A stretch of 42,267 nucleotides of DNA from a virus. Its lineage: Duplodnaviria > Heunggongvirae > Uroviricota > Caudoviricetes. The position numbers and the translations under genes were made by a program. This document shows positions 36,397 to 42,267 of the stretch, piece by piece. The notes beneath the pieces are model-generated. The model worked only from the letters and a program-made list of their open reading frames with translations. It was not told the origin of the DNA and did not search any database. Where the stretch lies: IMG/VR virus record IMGVR_UViG_2541047698_000018; one strand, written 5' to 3'. Position 1 is the first letter of the stretch; each line of letters opens with the position of its first letter.

Positions 36397-37158
36397 ATGC
36401 AGGAACTAACTGAAATGCCGATCACCTATCCATACCCGAGAGAATCTTTTCCTGACTTTTTGAGGGAGTGTGGGTTCACCAATTTTTCCCACGAACAGCG
36501 TGAGACTTGTGACTGCTATCGTTTAACGAATGGCGTAATTGTTAACCTTTACACCACCCGGACCATTCAGTTTCAAGGTAACCCTCAAGAACGTCCCAAT
36601 GTTGAAACTGCAATAATGACCCATTTAGGAACGCCGCCCACGGCAACACCACTAGCCGTAGAACAGCCATCTGAGCTCCCCAAAAAGATATTCATTGTTC
36701 ACGGCCATGACCATACTGCAAAGGAGCAACTTGAGCTAATCCTTCATAAACTTGGATTACCAGACCATTTCATTTTGCAGAATACGGGAGGGACTGGACT
36801 CACCATTATTGAAGAGCTTGAACGTGAAATTGGGCAAGGACAAACTGCTACCCGTTTCGGGATTGTTCTTTTGACACCTGATGATATGGGATACTCAAAG
36901 CGCGCCGGTGAAGCAGAAATCCAACCCCGCGCAAGACAGAACGTTGTACTCGAGATGGGTATGCTTCTTTCGTCCTTAGGGCGCAGCAATGTAGCAATCC
37001 TTCAGAAACAGCACCTAGAACAGCCTTCTGATGCTAACGGGATTTTGTATCTGAATTTCAACGACCATGTACGTGAAACAGTTCCTCGTCTAGTGCAACG
37101 GTTACAAAATTCTGGTTTCGAATTTACACAAGCTCAAATAGCTAACGCTTCCTCGTAA
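36397..37158 (+). CDS. TIR-like (COG4271/PF10137-type) nucleotide-binding domain protein with unknown N-terminal domain
   Basis: 253 aa; KKIFIVHGHD, VLLTPDD, ARQNVVLEMGMLLSSLGR resemble the TIR-like family as recalled. Confidence 0.5.
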   Translation: MQELTEMPITYPYPRESFPDFLRECGFTNFSHEQRETCDCYRLTNGVIVNLYTTRTIQFQGNPQERPNVETAIMTHLGTPPTATPLAVEQPSELPKKIFIVHGHDHTAKEQLELILHKLGLPDHFILQNTGGTGLTIIEELEREIGQGQTATRFGIVLLTPDDMGYSKRAGEAEIQPRARQNVVLEMGMLLSSLGRSNVAILQKQHLEQPSDANGILYLNFNDHVRETVPRLVQRLQNSGFEFTQAQIANASS

Positions 37159-37202: not shown

Positions 37203-37392
37203 ATTTGGGAATAAAAAACCTATGTCATTTAAATACCGGGACAGTCCGCTTTATTACCGGACTGTGCGGGAGGCTTTGCACCTTGAACAGTCCGGCGGGT
37301 ACGACCGGGCGATGCAGGTCTGGGCCAAAGCGAACGTCGGTTTGATTTTTGTCTGATGCAGAACATGCGCGAAAAGCGTAAGGAGGTGGACG

Positions 37393-37587
37393 ATGTCTAA
37401 TATCGATAATAAGGGTTGGGGGTTCCCCGCTCTGTCAAAAAAAGCACATTTCTTTAATTCGGGGGAAGCCATATCACTATGCGGAAAATGGATGTTCATA
37501 GGTATCAGGATTGATGAATGGCATGACCATCCTGAGAACTGCGCTATCTGCATGAAGAAACGCAAAAAGCAGGAAGGCGAAAGCTAA
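37393..37587 (+). CDS. Small Cys/His-rich protein
   Basis: 64 aa; C...H-x-H...C-x2-C; stop overlaps VRR-NUC start. Confidence 0.35.
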   Translation: MSNIDNKGWGFPALSKKAHFFNSGEAISLCGKWMFIGIRIDEWHDHPENCAICMKKRKKQEGES

Positions 37588-37856
37588 TGGCCTATGAACG
37601 TGAAAACCTAATCGAAAAGCACCTCGTCGCTGAAGTGAAAAAAGCTGGCGGGGTTGCCTTTAAGTTCGTATCTCCCGGTCGCCGCTCGGTACCAGATCGC
37701 ATTGTTCTGCTACCCGGCGGTCGCATCGTCTTTGTCGAATGCAAAGCACCAAGCAAACCTCCACGACCTGATCAGTTGCGCGAACATGAACGACTGCGCG
37801 CACTGGGCTTTAGCGTGGTGGTACTAGATAGCAAAAATCTAGAGAGGATATTGTAG
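37587..37856 (+). CDS. VRR-NUC domain nuclease
   Basis: 89 aa; PDRIVLL...IVFVECKAP matches VRR-NUC D...ExK core. Confidence 0.7.
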   Translation: MAYERENLIEKHLVAEVKKAGGVAFKFVSPGRRSVPDRIVLLPGGRIVFVECKAPSKPPRPDQLREHERLRALGFSVVVLDSKNLERIL

Positions 37857-37879
37857 CGTGAGAATTCTTCACGCTACAA
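37851..37879. terminator. Bidirectional hairpin between convergent units
   Basis: Perfect 11-bp stem ttgtagcgtga / tcacgctacaa with 7-nt loop, overlapping VRR-NUC stop. Confidence 0.55.
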
Positions 37880-37885
37880 TTATAA

Positions 37886-38146
37886 TTAGGGTTTTTTAGG
37901 GGGAGGAGCTACAGGACGAGTTTGTGACGGAGGCTGGTAACCATCACGCTTCTCTGACTCTAACGAACTTGGGCATTGCTGCATAGTTATAGGTGAACTA
38001 AAAAAGCCCATACTTCCATTATTTTGTGGTTGGTAACCATTGATAGCAAGACGTTCATTAGAAACTTTTGGTTGATACCCTTCCATAATTGCTTGATAGT
38101 TATTTACGTCCAATGCGTCATTACTCATCTTTTTATTAATAGTCAA
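37886..38146 (-). CDS. Small protein with three GYQP repeats and Pro-rich tail
   Basis: 86 aa; EGYQPK, NGYQPQ, DGYQPP; second gene of AT-rich minus-strand cassette. Confidence 0.4.
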   Translation of the reverse strand: MTINKKMSNDALDVNNYQAIMEGYQPKVSNERLAINGYQPQNNGSMGFFSSPITMQQCPSSLESEKRDGYQPPSQTRPVAPPPKKP

Positions 38147-38169
38147 TTTATACCACCTTTATTTTTAAC

Positions 38170-38772
38170 TTAAATTGAATAAAACTCTACGGTAAGAACA
38201 TCTGTAGTCAGAACCAACACACCTAAAGTTCGTTCTTTAGGTCTATCAAACCCACCGTCATCATTGATGTGCCAACTTTCAATCAAATAAATTTGCTCAG
38301 GTTCTGGGCTGCTTGAGGCAAAGGCATTACCTGCGTACAGCCCCCCTATTTTTTTACCATCTTTTAGGGTGATAATAACCCAACAAGCAGGAGCATTCCT
38401 GAAGAAAAAATCCCATGGACGCCCCACTGGATGCGGCAATTTATTTCTAAAAAACTGCGATTCTCTTAATTTATACAGAGCTACAGGAAGCAACGATGGA
38501 GATATAAAAAACGCTAAGAAGTACATTAGATAATATAAAAACAATGAATAATCAAATAAGTTATTCCGCTCTGCGAAATAAATCGGGAAAAACCAAATAG
38601 CATAATTAATGCAGCTATAAGCAACAGCATCAATAATTATTTTGGATGACTCTTTTTTAACCGAAGGATGAAGTGCTTCGTACACTTTTATACTAATAAA
38701 TCCAGGAACCACAAAAATAATAAAAATAAATAGTTTATCAAAGCTCCAAATATCCATACTTCTCTCCACCAT
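38170..38772 (-). CDS. AT-rich membrane protein with C-terminal soluble domain
   Basis: 200 aa; about 3 hydrophobic helices in the first 110 aa; opposite strand to flanking replication genes. Confidence 0.5.
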   Translation of the reverse strand: MVERSMDIWSFDKLFIFIIFVVPGFISIKVYEALHPSVKKESSKIIIDAVAYSCINYAIWFFPIYFAERNNLFDYSLFLYYLMYFLAFFISPSLLPVALYKLRESQFFRNKLPHPVGRPWDFFFRNAPACWVIITLKDGKKIGGLYAGNAFASSSPEPEQIYLIESWHINDDGGFDRPKERTLGVLVLTTDVLTVEFYSI

Positions 38773-38809
38773 CGCTTCTCCAGAACATTATACACATACA
38801 GGTTTCGAA

Positions 38810-40201
38810 ATGATCAATTTTTCTCCTCGCCTCTATCAAGACCTGATTATTAATCACCAAATCGAAACCCTGCGCGGCAACATCTGGGCGGGTATGGGAA
38901 TGGGTAAAACCGTAGCGACACTCACTACGCTGGAAGACCTCTTCATGGCGGGTGCAGAAACACAACCTGCGCTGGTTCTCGCGCCGCTGCGCGTGGCTGC
39001 CAGCACATGGCCGGATGAAGCACTGAAGTGGGGGCATTTGCGCAATATCGAGGTACAACCAATTGTTGGTAACGCCAAAGCGCGCTCTGCAGCGCTGGCG
39101 AACAGCAACGCGAGCGTGTTCACCATCAACTACGATAACCTTGTCTGGCTGGTTGAGGAATTGGGAGAACGATGGCCGTTCGGTACTGTCATTCCAGATG
39201 AAAGCACCCGGCTAAAATCCTTCCGGCTGCGAGGTGGTGGTAAGCGCGCGGCGGCGCTGGGCAAAGTGGCGCATAAGTATGTCCGGCGCTGGATAAATCT
39301 CACCGGTACTCCAGCACCGAACGGCCTGGTAGATTTGTGGGGACAAGCGTGGTTTGTGGACCAGGGGCAACGTCTCGGACGCACTTACGGCGCGTTTACC
39401 TCACGCTGGTTCAACTCGATACAGTTTCCGGGGCAGAGCTGGACCAAACTGGAGCCGTTTGCTCACTCACAGGGTGAAATACAGCGAGCGTTAGCCGATG
39501 TGACCCTATCGCTGGATGCGGCCGACTGGTTCGATATCAAAGACCCCATCCATAACGTAATCCGCGTGGATATGCCGGCGAAGGCCCGTCAGCAGTATCG
39601 TGAAATGGAAAAGGAAATGTTCCTCGAGCTGAATGGCGAAGGCATCGAAGCACCGAACGCCGCGGCAAAGACACTGAAGTGTCTGCAAATCGCCAGCGGC
39701 GCAGTATACACAGATGACACCGGAAGTTGGTCAGAACTGCATGACACCAAACTACAGGCGCTGGACAGCATACTGACCGAAGCAGCTGGCGCACCTGTGC
39801 TGGTTGCTTATCACTGGAAACACGATCTTGAACGCTTGCTTAAAGCATTTCCTCGCGGTCGTCACCTCGACCAGGATCCACAGACACTACGTGACTGGAA
39901 TTCCGGAAAGATTCCTGTTCTCTTTGCACACCCAGCCAGCGCGGGCCACGGTCTGAACATGCAGGACGGCGGAAACATACTGGTATTTTTCTCACATTGG
40001 TGGGACCTGGAGCAGTATCAGCAAATTATTGAACGTATCGGCCCAACCAGACAGATACAGGCCGGACACAATCGTCCGGTATTTATTCACCACATTATTG
40101 CTGCCGACACTATGGACGAAATGGTGATGGAGCGGCGCAACTCAAAACGAACAGTGCAGGACATCCTGCTCGATGCCATGAAAAAGAGAGGTATAGCATG
40201 A
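38810..40201 (+). CDS. SNF2-family helicase
   Basis: 463 aa; Walker A GMGMGKT; DExx box VIPDESTRL; C-terminal helicase domain. Confidence 0.8.
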   Translation: MINFSPRLYQDLIINHQIETLRGNIWAGMGMGKTVATLTTLEDLFMAGAETQPALVLAPLRVAASTWPDEALKWGHLRNIEVQPIVGNAKARSAALANSNASVFTINYDNLVWLVEELGERWPFGTVIPDESTRLKSFRLRGGGKRAAALGKVAHKYVRRWINLTGTPAPNGLVDLWGQAWFVDQGQRLGRTYGAFTSRWFNSIQFPGQSWTKLEPFAHSQGEIQRALADVTLSLDAADWFDIKDPIHNVIRVDMPAKARQQYREMEKEMFLELNGEGIEAPNAAAKTLKCLQIASGAVYTDDTGSWSELHDTKLQALDSILTEAAGAPVLVAYHWKHDLERLLKAFPRGRHLDQDPQTLRDWNSGKIPVLFAHPASAGHGLNMQDGGNILVFFSHWWDLEQYQQIIERIGPTRQIQAGHNRPVFIHHIIAADTMDEMVMERRNSKRTVQDILLDAMKKRGIA

Positions 40202-40398
40202 GCGAGAAACCCGACGATTTACTCACCCCAGATGAAGTATGCCAAAAGTTAGGTATTACACAGAAAACGCTATGTGAGTGGAATATTAAGCATCGTCATC
40301 GGGCTATCCTGGCACCAATTCGTTTCAGTGCAAAAGTAGTTCGTTATGAGCGCCGAAATGTCGACGCTTTTATTCAAAAGTGTCGCAGCCAGTATTAA
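40198..40398 (+). CDS. AlpA/excisionase-like DNA-binding protein
   Basis: 66 aa; LTPDEVCQKLGITQKTLCEW helix-turn-helix; adjacent to integrase. Confidence 0.5.
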   Translation: MSEKPDDLLTPDEVCQKLGITQKTLCEWNIKHRHRAILAPIRFSAKVVRYERRNVDAFIQKCRSQY

Positions 40399-41798
40399 CC
40401 TCGCCGCCGTAGCAATGCAACCTGCGCAAGTATGCTCCGCTCGTGAGCCTCGAAAGCTTCGCGCTTTAACGCAATCTCTTCCTGTAAAATCTCATCAGAA
40501 AAGTCGTAATGTTCTGCCATCGGGTCATCTGACTTGCTGGAGTGGTGAAGGCAAAGGAGGCTGATTTCCCTTCGGTCTGATCGGGAATAGCCTCTTTCCT
40601 TCATCAAGGCAATAACATTGCTCTTAAGGAATTTACGGCACATCGTATTAAATGCACCGTCTTTCCCTTTAACAGTCCCATCATGTTTTATTCCTTTTAC
40701 AGCCCCGTCCGGGCTGTATGTTTTCACCAGCTTATCCAGTGATCGTTTTGAAAATGGCTGCATTGGATCACGTGGCTGCAAAAATACATAATCCCTGTTG
40801 CACTCAGGAACTGAATCACGCCAGGCTTTCTGCTCGTCGATAATCCGCCGGATCTCAGGCGTTATCGGCAGGCGGAAAGCCTTTTGTGTTTTCATAGCCC
40901 CTCGCATGCCGATAACGCCTTCCGGATAAACAATTTCACCAGCCTCCTCGTGAACGTAGTCCCAGCGTAGGTTATGGACATTAATCGGACGAACGCCAGT
41001 GATGATCATGAAGCGAACAGCATTCTTCTGGTGTACAGAGGTGCAGGCAGCAACATTGAGCCAGAGTCGGGCGATTGATTCAATATCGGTAAAAAGCCGT
41101 GTGGGGGTAGGTTTCTGTACGCGGGAGGAAACATAATCATCTGGCAGACTGGCGGCAACATTGCGGCCGTTGCAAAGAGTAGGTGCGCAGAACTTCCAGA
41201 ACCGACGGAGCTCGGCAAACAACTCCAGGGCGTTATTGTTCGAGCGAGTGGCGATCCACTCGTCCAGCACTTCCACCAGCCGATTGTATGTTACGTCGCT
41301 GAACACCTCACGCTCGCCGAACGTTGCTTTAATCCGGTCGATACGCACCCCGTAGGTTGTGAAACTGTCCGGGCTCAGCTTCTGCCGGGCGACTTTGGCT
41401 TTGAGGTCATCCCGGTACATTTCCAGCGCTGCATGTACTGACTCTGCCCGCAAGCCACAGTCAGCCATACCTAGCGCTTTTTCGCGCGCCAGCTGGATAG
41501 CGAGCTCCGGCCACTCGCCGAGCTTTTTACCCTTGAGGCCCATCTTTTTTGGAAACTCGGCGTAAAATGTAACCTTACCGGCTTTGCTGAAATCGATACG
41601 GAGATAGTTCTCTTTTTCGTATTTGGAACGGCGAGCCACGCCGGAAGCAGCGAGGATGATTTTGGCGGCAGCAACACAGATTTTCATGTGTGCGCTGGTA
41701 TAGGGGGGTTTACAGGCGTCCCATTTTTCAGATGCGGCTAAAACATCGTCATTATTGGGGCTATCCGGATTATGTGTTACAGTGCGCGGCATTCTCAA
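40395..41798 (-). CDS. int: Tyrosine integrase (start codon uncertain)
   Basis: 467-aa ORF at prophage edge; ITGVRP (Arg), LHH, C-terminal AEHYDF (Tyr) consistent with a divergent tyrosine recombinase. Confidence 0.7.
   Translation of the reverse strand: MRMPRTVTHNPDSPNNDDVLAASEKWDACKPPYTSAHMKICVAAAKIILAASGVARRSKYEKENYLRIDFSKAGKVTFYAEFPKKMGLKGKKLGEWPELAIQLAREKALGMADCGLRAESVHAALEMYRDDLKAKVARQKLSPDSFTTYGVRIDRIKATFGEREVFSDVTYNRLVEVLDEWIATRSNNNALELFAELRRFWKFCAPTLCNGRNVAASLPDDYVSSRVQKPTPTRLFTDIESIARLWLNVAACTSVHQKNAVRFMIITGVRPINVHNLRWDYVHEEAGEIVYPEGVIGMRGAMKTQKAFRLPITPEIRRIIDEQKAWRDSVPECNRDYVFLQPRDPMQPFSKRSLDKLVKTYSPDGAVKGIKHDGTVKGKDGAFNTMCRKFLKSNVIALMKERGYSRSDRREISLLCLHHSSKSDDPMAEHYDFSDEILQEEIALKREAFEAHERSILAQVALLRRRG

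Positions 41799-42267
<469 letters not shown>

What the first reader, a model, noticed from the sequence alone, without database searches (positions are those of the whole stretch)
37851..38809. AT-rich two-gene cassette (membrane protein plus GYQP-repeat protein) inserted antisense in the replication module
Two minus-strand genes (200-aa membrane protein, then an 86-aa protein with three GYQP repeats and a Pro-rich tail) are AT-rich and interrupt the plus-strand VRR-NUC to SNF2 gene order. A perfect 11-bp-stem hairpin bounds them. This has the hallmarks of a horizontally acquired moron, possibly a superinfection-exclusion or abortive-infection module.
Basis: partly seen in the sequence, partly recalled or inferred. 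Interest (0 to 1): 0.6.

Follow-up and report, generated by a model that had tools for sequence, protein, structure and literature searches.

The report
Prophage cargo: membrane Sm-protein plus microprotein
The cassette is a real, rarely carried cargo insert in an E. coli prophage, and it belongs to a two-gene unit found across many bacterial phyla: a membrane protein with an Sm-like domain, almost always followed by a tiny disordered "GYQP...PPxxx" protein that no searched database or paper describes as a family; its position points to anti-phage defence, but that is untested.

Summary
Window 37850-38825 is an AT-rich block (GC 0.33-0.38, flanks 0.50-0.57) on the minus strand, between VRR-NUC and SNF2. 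A perfect 12-bp hairpin closes it.

It is cargo, not core. About 155 of 5426 complete E. coli genomes carry the prophage backbone, and only 5 have a DUF6338 gene in this slot. Other relatives carry BstA (a known abortive-infection protein), a Dcm methylase, a weak TIR-like protein or unknown genes there.

- **Gene 2:** not a chance ORF. In about 123 of 125 DUF6338 loci from many phyla and from viral contigs, a 40-85 aa disordered protein follows directly, often overlapping.
- **Gene 2 motifs:** 2-4 G(Y/H/W)xP repeats, then a tail that is PP plus three residues before the stop in 79 of 83 cases.
- **Gene 2 status:** absent from Pfam, NCBIfam, PHROGs and PADLOC. Related proline-rich peptides were seen by mass spectrometry in P. 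stutzeri and were called species-specific there.

Function is inferred. The most likely reading is a stand-alone membrane defence or exclusion module regulated by the microprotein. Evidence is the defence-hotspot location, defence-rich neighbours, charge covariation and rare natural fusions. There is no experimental proof.

The parts
38170..38772 (-). DUF6338 gene. It encodes three transmembrane helices (N-terminus out) followed by a cytoplasmic Sm/LSm-like beta domain. The likely true start is the conserved MDIW codon at 38757 (195 aa).
37886..38146 (-). Gene for an 86-aa disordered microprotein with a TTG start. It has four G-Y-Q-P-type repeats, the first degenerate, and the tail PPP-KKP-stop. 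It is a long enterobacterial variant of the partner protein found next to almost every DUF6338 gene.
   Evidence: ORF. Alignment with 69 partners from other loci. The partner is present in 66/76 loci by script and about 75/76 after reading overlapping frames, and in 48/49 viral contigs. pN/pS is 0.25-0.32. No Pfam, NCBIfam, PHROG or PADLOC hit.
38147..38169 (-). 23-nt spacer between the two genes. It carries a Shine-Dalgarno-like AAGGTGG six nt before the TTG start. In many other loci the two ORFs overlap instead, by 3 to about 40 nt or more.
   Evidence: Sequence read directly. Distribution of gaps and overlaps in 66 loci. TGATG overlap in L005.
37850..37880 (.). Perfect 12-bp inverted repeat with a 7-nt loop, lying between the convergent VRR-NUC and microprotein genes. 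It is a likely transcript-end hairpin for both, although it lacks a T-run.
   Evidence: -17.2 kcal/mol, z -8.55. The generic terminator scan does not call it. The divergent cassette in L005 has a different GC hairpin at the same place.
38810..38839 (-). Weak sigma-70-like promoter match for the cassette (TTGATA-18-GATCAT). It overlaps the first codons of the divergent SNF2 gene.
   Evidence: 9 of 12 matches. The scan found 4 sites in the region against 2.8 expected, so this is a weak indication only.
37845..38825 (.). The variable cargo slot as a whole. Sequence here is unrelated to that of most related prophages, whose homology stops and restarts at these borders.
   Evidence: blastn breakpoints 37835-37854 and 38810-38834 against L002-L005 and L104-L106. 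Alternative cargo.

Best explanation
**Shown**
- The cassette is accessory cargo in a recombination-prone slot between VRR-NUC and SNF2 of an E. coli prophage integrated next to yfhL.
- It is one copy of a self-contained two-gene operon found from Enterobacteria to Chloroflexota, and in one archaeal MAG.
- The first gene, DUF6338, encodes an inner-membrane protein with three transmembrane helices and a cytoplasmic Sm/LSm-like domain.
- The second gene is often translationally coupled to the first. It encodes a cytoplasmic, intrinsically disordered microprotein with 2-4 Gly-Tyr-Gln-Pro-type repeats.
- The microprotein's C-terminus is almost invariably Pro-Pro plus three polar residues.

**Inferred**
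- The Sm-like domains assemble DUF6338 into a ring at the membrane, as Sm proteins generally do.
- The microprotein docks on the cytoplasmic face through its Tyr-containing repeats and its charged PPxxx tip, and holds the membrane protein inactive, in the manner of an antitoxin or gate.
- Phage infection removes or out-competes the microprotein. One possible route is loss of a short-lived, proline-rich protein when host translation is shut off.
- The membrane protein then disturbs the membrane and aborts or excludes the infection.
- The lysogen thereby gains protection, which would explain why the module travels as prophage, island and plasmid cargo.
For: **Cargo status**
- GC dip, breakpoints, and presence in 2+3 of 5426 genomes against 155 with the backbone.
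- Diverged alleles of the same pair occupy the same slot in K. aerogenes and Salmonella prophages.
- The pair also sits antisense in a Klebsiella lambdoid prophage and in a Pseudomonas P2-like tail module.

**Operon conservation**
- A small ORF with at least 2 G[YWFH]xP motifs lies directly downstream in 66/76 genome loci, against 8/5807 background ORFs.
- Nine of the ten apparent exceptions hold the partner, mostly overlapping the DUF6338 3' end in another frame; only L022 lacks it.
- 48/49 viral contigs have it.
- No third gene is conserved; no family is matched by more than 3 of 98 neighbours.

**Fold and topology**
-.

**Physical link between the two proteins**
- Charge covariation: basic tails (KKP/KKK) go with D/E at window D172, while acidic tails (GDE/DEE/KEE/EDP) go with K/R/N there and K at I133.
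- Rare in-frame natural fusions exist: P0141, P0240 and P0174.

**Expression**
- Proline-rich PPPPKK-tailed peptides encoded after a P. stutzeri DUF6338 gene were detected by mass spectrometry (PMC10433244).

**Defence context**
- The same slot holds BstA in E. coli 93_0495 (PADLOC E 1.4e-115) and a weak TIR-like protein in strain 631.
- In the window, the TIR/PDC-S35 gene lies 700 nt upstream.
- Immediate neighbours in 49 unrelated loci include TIR (3+2), caspase (3), AAA_21 (3), AbiEii (2), AAA_13/PDC-S06 (2) and nSTAND3.
- Individual loci sit next to an Abi_C protein, a CHAT protein and an MmeI-type restriction enzyme.
Against: - There is no experimental phenotype anywhere, and no hit to any of 5027 PADLOC models.
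- Neighbourhood enrichment was judged from family counts only, without a matched control.
- The family is nearly absent from sequenced phage isolates (1 of 50,697) and rare on plasmids (15 of 72,556).
- Ring formation, microprotein binding and toxicity are all untested.
- AF2 of a natural fusion left the GY tail disordered, with pLDDT 46-56.
- The charge covariation is largely carried by one clade and has a counter-example, L083.
- The P. stutzeri peptides were abundant in normally growing cells. That fits an excess inhibitor but fits a housekeeping role equally well.
Confidence: 0.4

Rival explanations
1. Superinfection exclusion at the point of DNA entry. A membrane-anchored Sm-like ring on the cytoplasmic face binds or blocks incoming phage nucleic acid. 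The microprotein acts as a nucleic-acid-mimicking lid that keeps the ring off host RNA, by analogy with the acidic C-terminal tail of Hfq (from my own knowledge of the Hfq literature).
For: The protein is prophage-encoded, polytopic and in the inner membrane, and is expressed antisense to the lytic genes. The closest structural matches are RNA-binding SmAP and Hfq rings. The partner is disordered and carries a charged tip.
Against: The module is equally common outside prophages, in islands next to TIR, caspase and AbiE genes, and it is conserved at 41-50% identity across phyla. That is unusual for phage-specific exclusion proteins. No nucleic-acid-binding residues were tested.
Confidence: 0.15
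2. An addiction or toxin-antitoxin-like stabilisation module. A membrane toxin and a labile proline-rich antitoxin serve mainly to keep the mobile element in the cell, with no direct anti-phage role.
For: The unit is two tightly coupled genes, often overlapping. It is found on small Acinetobacter plasmids among other small accessory genes and in integrative islands. The partner is disordered.
Against: It is very rare on plasmids (15 of 72,556). No DNA-binding or autoregulatory domain is present. It matches no PADLOC model, including those for defence-linked toxin-antitoxin systems such as AbiE and DarTG. Toxicity is untested.
Confidence: 0.15
3. A host-physiology (lysogenic conversion) function unrelated to phages, for example a small stress-gated membrane channel or a device that tethers RNA at the membrane. 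The microprotein would be a structural or regulatory subunit.
For: Three transmembrane helices followed by an Sm-like beta domain recalls the layout of MscS (my own knowledge of MscS structure). Invariant polar residues S53 and N56 lie within TM2. The P. stutzeri peptides were abundant during ordinary growth. The family is spread across phyla and many neighbours are housekeeping genes.
Confidence: 0.15
4. The microprotein is the active agent, a proline-rich antimicrobial or ribosome-targeting peptide, and DUF6338 is its immunity protein or exporter.
For: The authors of PMC10433244 raised an antimicrobial role for such proline-rich peptides. A small peptide next to a polytopic membrane protein resembles bacteriocin-immunity pairs (my own knowledge).
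Against: There is no signal or leader peptide and no transporter or processing gene nearby. The peptide is Lys-, Gln- and Gly-rich rather than built of Arg-Pro repeats. It accumulates in the producer's soluble fraction. The membrane gene comes first and the pair is translationally coupled.
Confidence: 0.05

Closest known systems
P. stutzeri DUF6338 operon (Pstu14405_RS12030) with the proline-rich small proteins SEP1, SEP5 and SEP2 (Anal Chem 2023, PMC10433244)
   Same: A DUF6338 gene followed on the same strand by short proline-rich ORFs ending in PPPP(P)KK. Translation was shown by mass spectrometry. This is the only published relative found.
   Different: That locus has three tandem peptides, and they lack clear GYQP repeats. 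The authors judged them specific to P. stutzeri and possibly newly evolved genes. Here the pairing is shown to be nearly universal for the family.
BstA, a prophage-encoded abortive-infection protein (PADLOC BstA)
   Same: It occupies exactly the same VRR-NUC/SNF2 slot, antisense, in a related E. coli prophage. It is single-locus prophage cargo that protects the lysogen.
   Different: There is no sequence or fold relation. As I recall it, BstA is a soluble DNA-binding protein with a cognate anti-BstA DNA element. Here there is a membrane protein plus a microprotein.
Lambda RexAB and similar two-component prophage membrane abortive-infection systems
   Same: They are prophage-borne and expressed in the lysogen. 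One polytopic membrane component is controlled by a second protein, and the proposed outcome is loss of membrane potential (my own knowledge).
   Different: There is no homology. The partner here is a 40-85 aa disordered peptide rather than a folded sensor, and the membrane protein carries an Sm-like domain.
Sm/LSm/Hfq ring proteins, including the autoregulatory acidic tail of Hfq
   Different: The domain is anchored by three transmembrane helices. There is no Pfam LSM hit. RNA binding and ring formation are untested, and the tail is usually a separate gene.
MscS-type mechanosensitive channels
   Same: The general layout is alike: three transmembrane helices followed by a small Sm-like beta domain that oligomerises into a ring (my own knowledge).
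   Different: No sequence hit, not among the top structural matches, no alpha-beta domain, and much smaller.

Membership tests
Pfam DUF6338 (PF19865) | Full-length match to the family HMM above the gathering score | tested here: met
   127 bits against a cut-off of 26.5, E 9.5e-37, residues 9-198 on profile positions 3-200 of 205.
DUF6338 plus GYQP/PPxxx microprotein operon (defined here) | A same-strand ORF of 40-85 aa starts within about 40 nt before to 90 nt after the DUF6338 stop, with at least 2 G[YWFH]xP motifs and a C-terminus of PP plus 3 residues | tested here: met
   In the window the gap is 23 nt, there are 3 motifs plus 1 degenerate, and the tail is PPP-KKP. The rule holds in about 75/76 genome loci, 48/49 viral loci and 79/83 tails.
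Sm/LSm fold | An N-terminal helix followed by a strongly bent five-stranded antiparallel sheet | tested here: met
Sm/LSm fold | Sequence membership of the LSM family (Sm1/Sm2 motifs) | tested here: not met
   No Pfam hit other than DUF6338 at E <= 0.1. The PDB profile search found nothing below E = 1.
Sm/LSm fold | Assembly into hexameric or heptameric rings, and RNA binding | not testable with these tools
Prophage moron / variable cargo slot | Deviant composition, own orientation and transcript end, and presence or absence among otherwise collinear relatives | tested here: met
Prophage moron / variable cargo slot | Transcription from its own promoter in the lysogen | tested here: inconclusive
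   Only a 9-of-12 sigma-70-like match at 38839-38810, and the scan is not enriched over shuffles. No expression data are available.
Known anti-phage defence systems (PADLOC-DB v2.0.0) | Match of either protein to a defence-system model | tested here: not met
   No family at E <= 0.1 for either protein. The neighbouring TIR gene does match PDC-S35.
Toxin-antitoxin or abortive-infection two-gene module | Two adjacent, co-transcribed and often overlapping genes, with no other conserved partner | tested here: met
   Gap and overlap distribution. No conserved third gene.
Toxin-antitoxin or abortive-infection two-gene module | Toxicity of one product, neutralised by the other; phage-triggered growth arrest | not testable with these tools
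   Needs expression and infection experiments.
MscS channel family | Match to the MS_channel models or a structural match to the MscS TM3-beta domain | tested here: not met
Proline-rich antimicrobial peptides | Arg/Pro-rich repeats (PRP-type) and secretion or a leader peptide | tested here: not met
   Composition is P 16.7%, K 11.4%, R 2.7%, with no hydrophobic leader. Activity was not tested.

The most novel reading that the evidence does not exclude
DUF6338 plus its microprotein is a previously unrecognised, phylum-spanning class of immune or toxin module.
- A membrane-tethered Sm ring is gated by a disordered microprotein.
- The microprotein's strictly positioned Pro-Pro-x-x-x-stop end makes its supply or docking depend on the state of translation, through poly-proline elongation or termination.
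- The system would therefore read out phage take-over of the ribosome rather than any particular phage protein.
Probability: 0.12. Interest if true: 0.85.

Novelty: new variant of a known kind. Interest (0 to 1): 0.62.

Why it matters
**Defence biology.** If the module protects against phages, it adds a compact two-gene system built from parts not seen in known defence systems, namely a membrane-anchored Sm-like domain and a conserved disordered microprotein. It also marks the VRR-NUC/SNF2 junction of this prophage group as a defence hotspot where further unknown cargo sits: the 265-aa, 236-aa and 106-aa proteins.

**Annotation.** Whatever the function, the microprotein family is a concrete annotation gap. 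It accompanies about 98% of the 125 DUF6338 loci examined, out of roughly 3000 sequence clusters in the family.
- It is absent from Pfam, NCBIfam, PHROGs and PADLOC.
- It is often not called as a gene, or is hidden under an over-extended DUF6338 ORF.
- The one paper that detected relatives thought them species-specific.

**An open rule.** The fixed PP-xxx-stop ending is simple, testable and has no present explanation.

Tried and rejected
**Attempts that gave nothing useful**
- A natural fusion, P0141, was predicted instead. Its tail stayed disordered, so nothing can be concluded about docking.
- The afdb50 fold library was not available. The viral fold library gave only uncharacterised proteins.
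- A sequence profile against the PDB found nothing, and Rfam found nothing in the cassette.
- Literature searches for DUF6338, PF19865, GYQP, PPPKKP, Sm-like with anti-phage, and the hotspot gave one relevant paper.
- A word-indexed homologue search with the 86-aa protein reached only 9 close relatives, so the family had to be found by position rather than by similarity.

**Ideas rejected**
- *DUF6338 proteins with C-terminal extensions are fusions.* Most are the other reading frame of the overlapping microprotein gene. Only a few distant ones are true in-frame fusions.
- *Holin or lysis function.* The module is in the wrong place for this and also occurs outside phages.
- *Chance ORF.* Conservation, pN/pS and the mass-spectrometry evidence rule it out.

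**Alternative cargo left unexplained**
- The 265-, 236- and 106-aa proteins had no Pfam or PADLOC hits.

Full report
**1. What is in the window**

The stretch holds two minus-strand ORFs. One is 38170..38772 (200 aa) and the other is 37886..38146 (86 aa, TTG start). They lie between the plus-strand VRR-NUC gene (37587..37856) and the SNF2 helicase gene (38810..40201).

GC falls to 0.33-0.38 across 37800-38800, against 0.50-0.58 on either side. A perfect 12-bp inverted repeat with a 7-nt loop (37850-37861 / 37869-37880) sits between the convergent gene ends. As RNA it folds at -17.2 kcal/mol, z = -8.55, and none of 200 shuffles fold as well. It has no T-run, and the generic terminator scan does not call it.

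The only promoter-like match for the cassette is weak, at 38839-38810 on the minus strand. No Rfam family matches. The small protein also has a fourth, degenerate repeat.

**2. It is cargo in a variable slot**

The window is an E. coli prophage integrated next to yfhL. The same region is 99.9% identical in strain BCE049.

The backbone around the cassette is found in 155 of 5426 complete E. coli genomes. The cassette itself is in only two, and a diverged allele is in three more. Homology to relatives stops at 37835-37854 and resumes at 38810-38834.

Other relatives carry different cargo in that slot:
- a 265-aa unknown protein (strains C11 and 357900);
- a 305-aa protein with a weak TIR match (strain 631, and phages vB_EcoM-689R2 and relatives);
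- a Dcm methylase plus a 106-aa protein (ECE170);
- a 236-aa unknown protein (FDAARGOS_144);
- BstA, a known prophage abortive-infection protein (strain 93_0495; PADLOC E 1.4e-115).

Related prophages of Klebsiella aerogenes and Salmonella, integrated at other sites, carry diverged copies of the same two-gene pair in the same slot.

**3. The large protein**

It is a full-length member of Pfam DUF6338 and matches nothing in PADLOC, PHROGs or NCBIfam.

Across the alignment the N-terminus is acidic and the segment after TM3 carries 3.7 Lys+Arg on average. By the positive-inside rule the Sm-like domain is cytoplasmic. Invariant residues include PGF in TM1 and S53 and N56 in TM2.

A profile search of 1.84 billion cluster representatives finds 3080 members at E <= 0.001. 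Nearly all are 190-215 aa, so this is a stand-alone architecture.

**4. The small protein is the main finding**

A diverged E. coli allele (L005) has a 47-aa ORF overlapping the DUF6338 stop (TGATG). It carries the same GY(Q/T)P repeats and the PPPKKP end. The same holds in a Klebsiella lambdoid prophage and in a Pseudomonas veronii P2-like tail cluster, where the small ORF is not annotated.

I then fetched 80 DUF6338 loci from species across Pseudomonadota, Bacteroidota, Nitrospirota, Chloroflexota, Synergistota, Planctomycetota and one Methanosarcinales MAG.
- Of 76 usable loci, 66 have a 25-85 aa ORF with at least two G[YWFH]xP motifs starting 40 nt before to 84 nt after the DUF6338 stop.
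- The background is 8 of 5807 other small ORFs in the same loci.
- Reading the ten exceptions showed the microprotein ORF in nine, usually overlapping the DUF6338 3' end in another frame. What looked like C-terminal extensions of DUF6338 are mostly that overlap.
- In IMG/VR viral contigs, 48 of 49 loci have it.

The aligned family reads M-(S/T)-x-K ... (E/D)GYQP ... KGYQP ... GGYQPT(T/S)S ... PP-x-x-x-stop.

The last Pro-Pro is followed by exactly three residues in 79 of 83 proteins. Those residues range from KKP and KKK to GDE and DEE. The last GYQP-type motif lies 13-17 residues before the Pro-Pro. I have no explanation for this fixed ending.

The protein is 17% Pro, 11% Lys and 11% Gly, with only 11% hydrophobic residues, so it is disordered and cytoplasmic. 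Against close relatives the small ORF has pN/pS of 0.25-0.32 and a conserved start position.

It matches no Pfam, NCBIfam, PHROG or PADLOC model. Some loci have two or three tandem copies: an Acinetobacter plasmid, L043, L069 and P. stutzeri.

**5. Published knowledge**

Full-text search finds DUF6338 in one paper, a P. stutzeri proteogenomics study (PMC10433244). It detected three novel proline-rich peptides by mass spectrometry. These are encoded directly after a DUF6338 gene and end in PPPPKK, PPPPPKRDSK and PPPPPKKGG. The authors stated that they were not conserved beyond P. stutzeri.

That paper supplies experimental evidence that partners of this kind are translated and abundant. The generality of the pairing appears not to have been described.

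**6. Do the two proteins touch?**

Three indirect lines suggest that they do.
- The genes are adjacent, often overlapping, and no third gene is conserved.
- Tail charge covaries with the Sm-like domain. Basic tails go with Asp or Glu at the position of window D172, in the NDDGGF hairpin loop. Acidic tails go with Lys, Arg or Asn there, Lys at I133 and Arg at Y198. Most of this signal comes from one clade, with a few extra switches (L071, L077) and one counter-example (L083). It is suggestive only.
- A few distant family members are in-frame fusions of DUF6338 with a GY-motif, PP-ended tail: P0141, P0240 and P0174.

A direct test by structure prediction failed.

**7. What it probably does**

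The context points to defence.
- The slot itself holds BstA in a relative.
- A TIR/PDC-S35 gene lies just upstream in the window.
- Among 98 immediate neighbours in 49 unrelated loci there are TIR (3+2), caspase (3), AAA_21 (3), AbiEii (2), AAA_13/PDC-S06 (2) and nSTAND3 domains.
- Single loci sit beside Abi_C, CHAT and MmeI-type restriction genes.
- The module recurs antisense in three unrelated prophage types.

Against this, nothing matches a known defence model. The family is almost absent from sequenced phage isolates and is rare on plasmids. The neighbourhood counts lack a matched control.

My best reading, at about 40%, is a stand-alone membrane defence or abortive-infection module. An Sm-ring membrane protein is held in check by the microprotein and released on infection. 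The rivals are:
- exclusion at DNA entry (15%);
- an addiction module (15%);
- a non-phage membrane or RNA function (15%);
- a peptide-plus-immunity pair (5%).

**8. Verdict**

The moron interpretation is supported, and the defence function is plausible but unproven.

The new element is the near-obligate DUF6338-microprotein operon, with an Sm-like cytoplasmic domain and a fixed PP-xxx-stop ending. In composition it is an uncharacterised variant of the familiar class of two-gene accessory modules carried by prophages.

Noticed in passing
window 36397-37158 (+): A 253-aa protein with a CAP12/Pycsar-type TIR domain (Pfam E 2.9e-31) matches the PADLOC candidate defence family PDC-S35 over its full length (E 7e-109). 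It sits between the DNA polymerase and the ANR/VRR-NUC genes. Relatives have DUF4406, a methyltransferase or Nmad5 in that region instead, so the replication module seems to hold a second cargo slot.
   Followed up: partly
window 37222-37400 (+): RefSeq annotates the identical region of E. coli BCE049 as a frameshifted ANR-family transcriptional regulator. The gene is intact in some relatives (L004, L005).
   Followed up: no
L105 565-1497 (E. coli 93_0495); L003 1988-2905; L002 1988-2785; L104 576-1286; L004 2792-3112: Alternative cargo occupies the same VRR-NUC/SNF2 slot: BstA (PADLOC E 1.4e-115), a 305-aa protein with a weak TIR-effector match (E 1.1e-6), and three proteins (265, 236 and 106 aa) with no Pfam or PADLOC hit. 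The three unknowns are further untested defence candidates.
   Followed up: partly
83 microproteins from L005-L162, e.g. window 37886-37903: The last Pro-Pro is followed by exactly three residues and then the stop codon in 79 of 83 partners. Those residues vary from KKP to GDE. The last GYQP-type motif lies 13-17 residues upstream of the Pro-Pro. This is unexplained.
   Followed up: partly
L018, L024, L026, L034, L044, L048, L061 (3' ends of DUF6338 ORFs): In many genomes the microprotein gene overlaps the end of the DUF6338 ORF in another frame. Gene callers report a lengthened DUF6338 protein (219-239 aa) and miss the microprotein. In P. veronii (L010 4603-4734) it is simply not called.
   Followed up: yes
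L095 3121-3432; L043; L069; P. stutzeri CP036186 2666728-2667116: Some loci carry two or three tandem microprotein genes after a single DUF6338 gene.
   Followed up: partly
L094 2129-5168 (Streptomyces plasmid); L093 (Rhodococcus plasmid): Distant actinobacterial DUF6338 genes are followed by a 48-aa ORF with a single RGYTPK motif and then a CHAT (caspase-like) protein. The pairing may extend to Actinomycetota in a more diverged form.
   Followed up: partly
window 40395-41798 (-) and 42007-42267 (+): A tyrosine integrase lies at the prophage end, next to the host yfhL ferredoxin gene. Related prophages in Klebsiella and Salmonella use other integration sites (near sbcB and near proA) with the same replication-module layout.
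   Followed up: no
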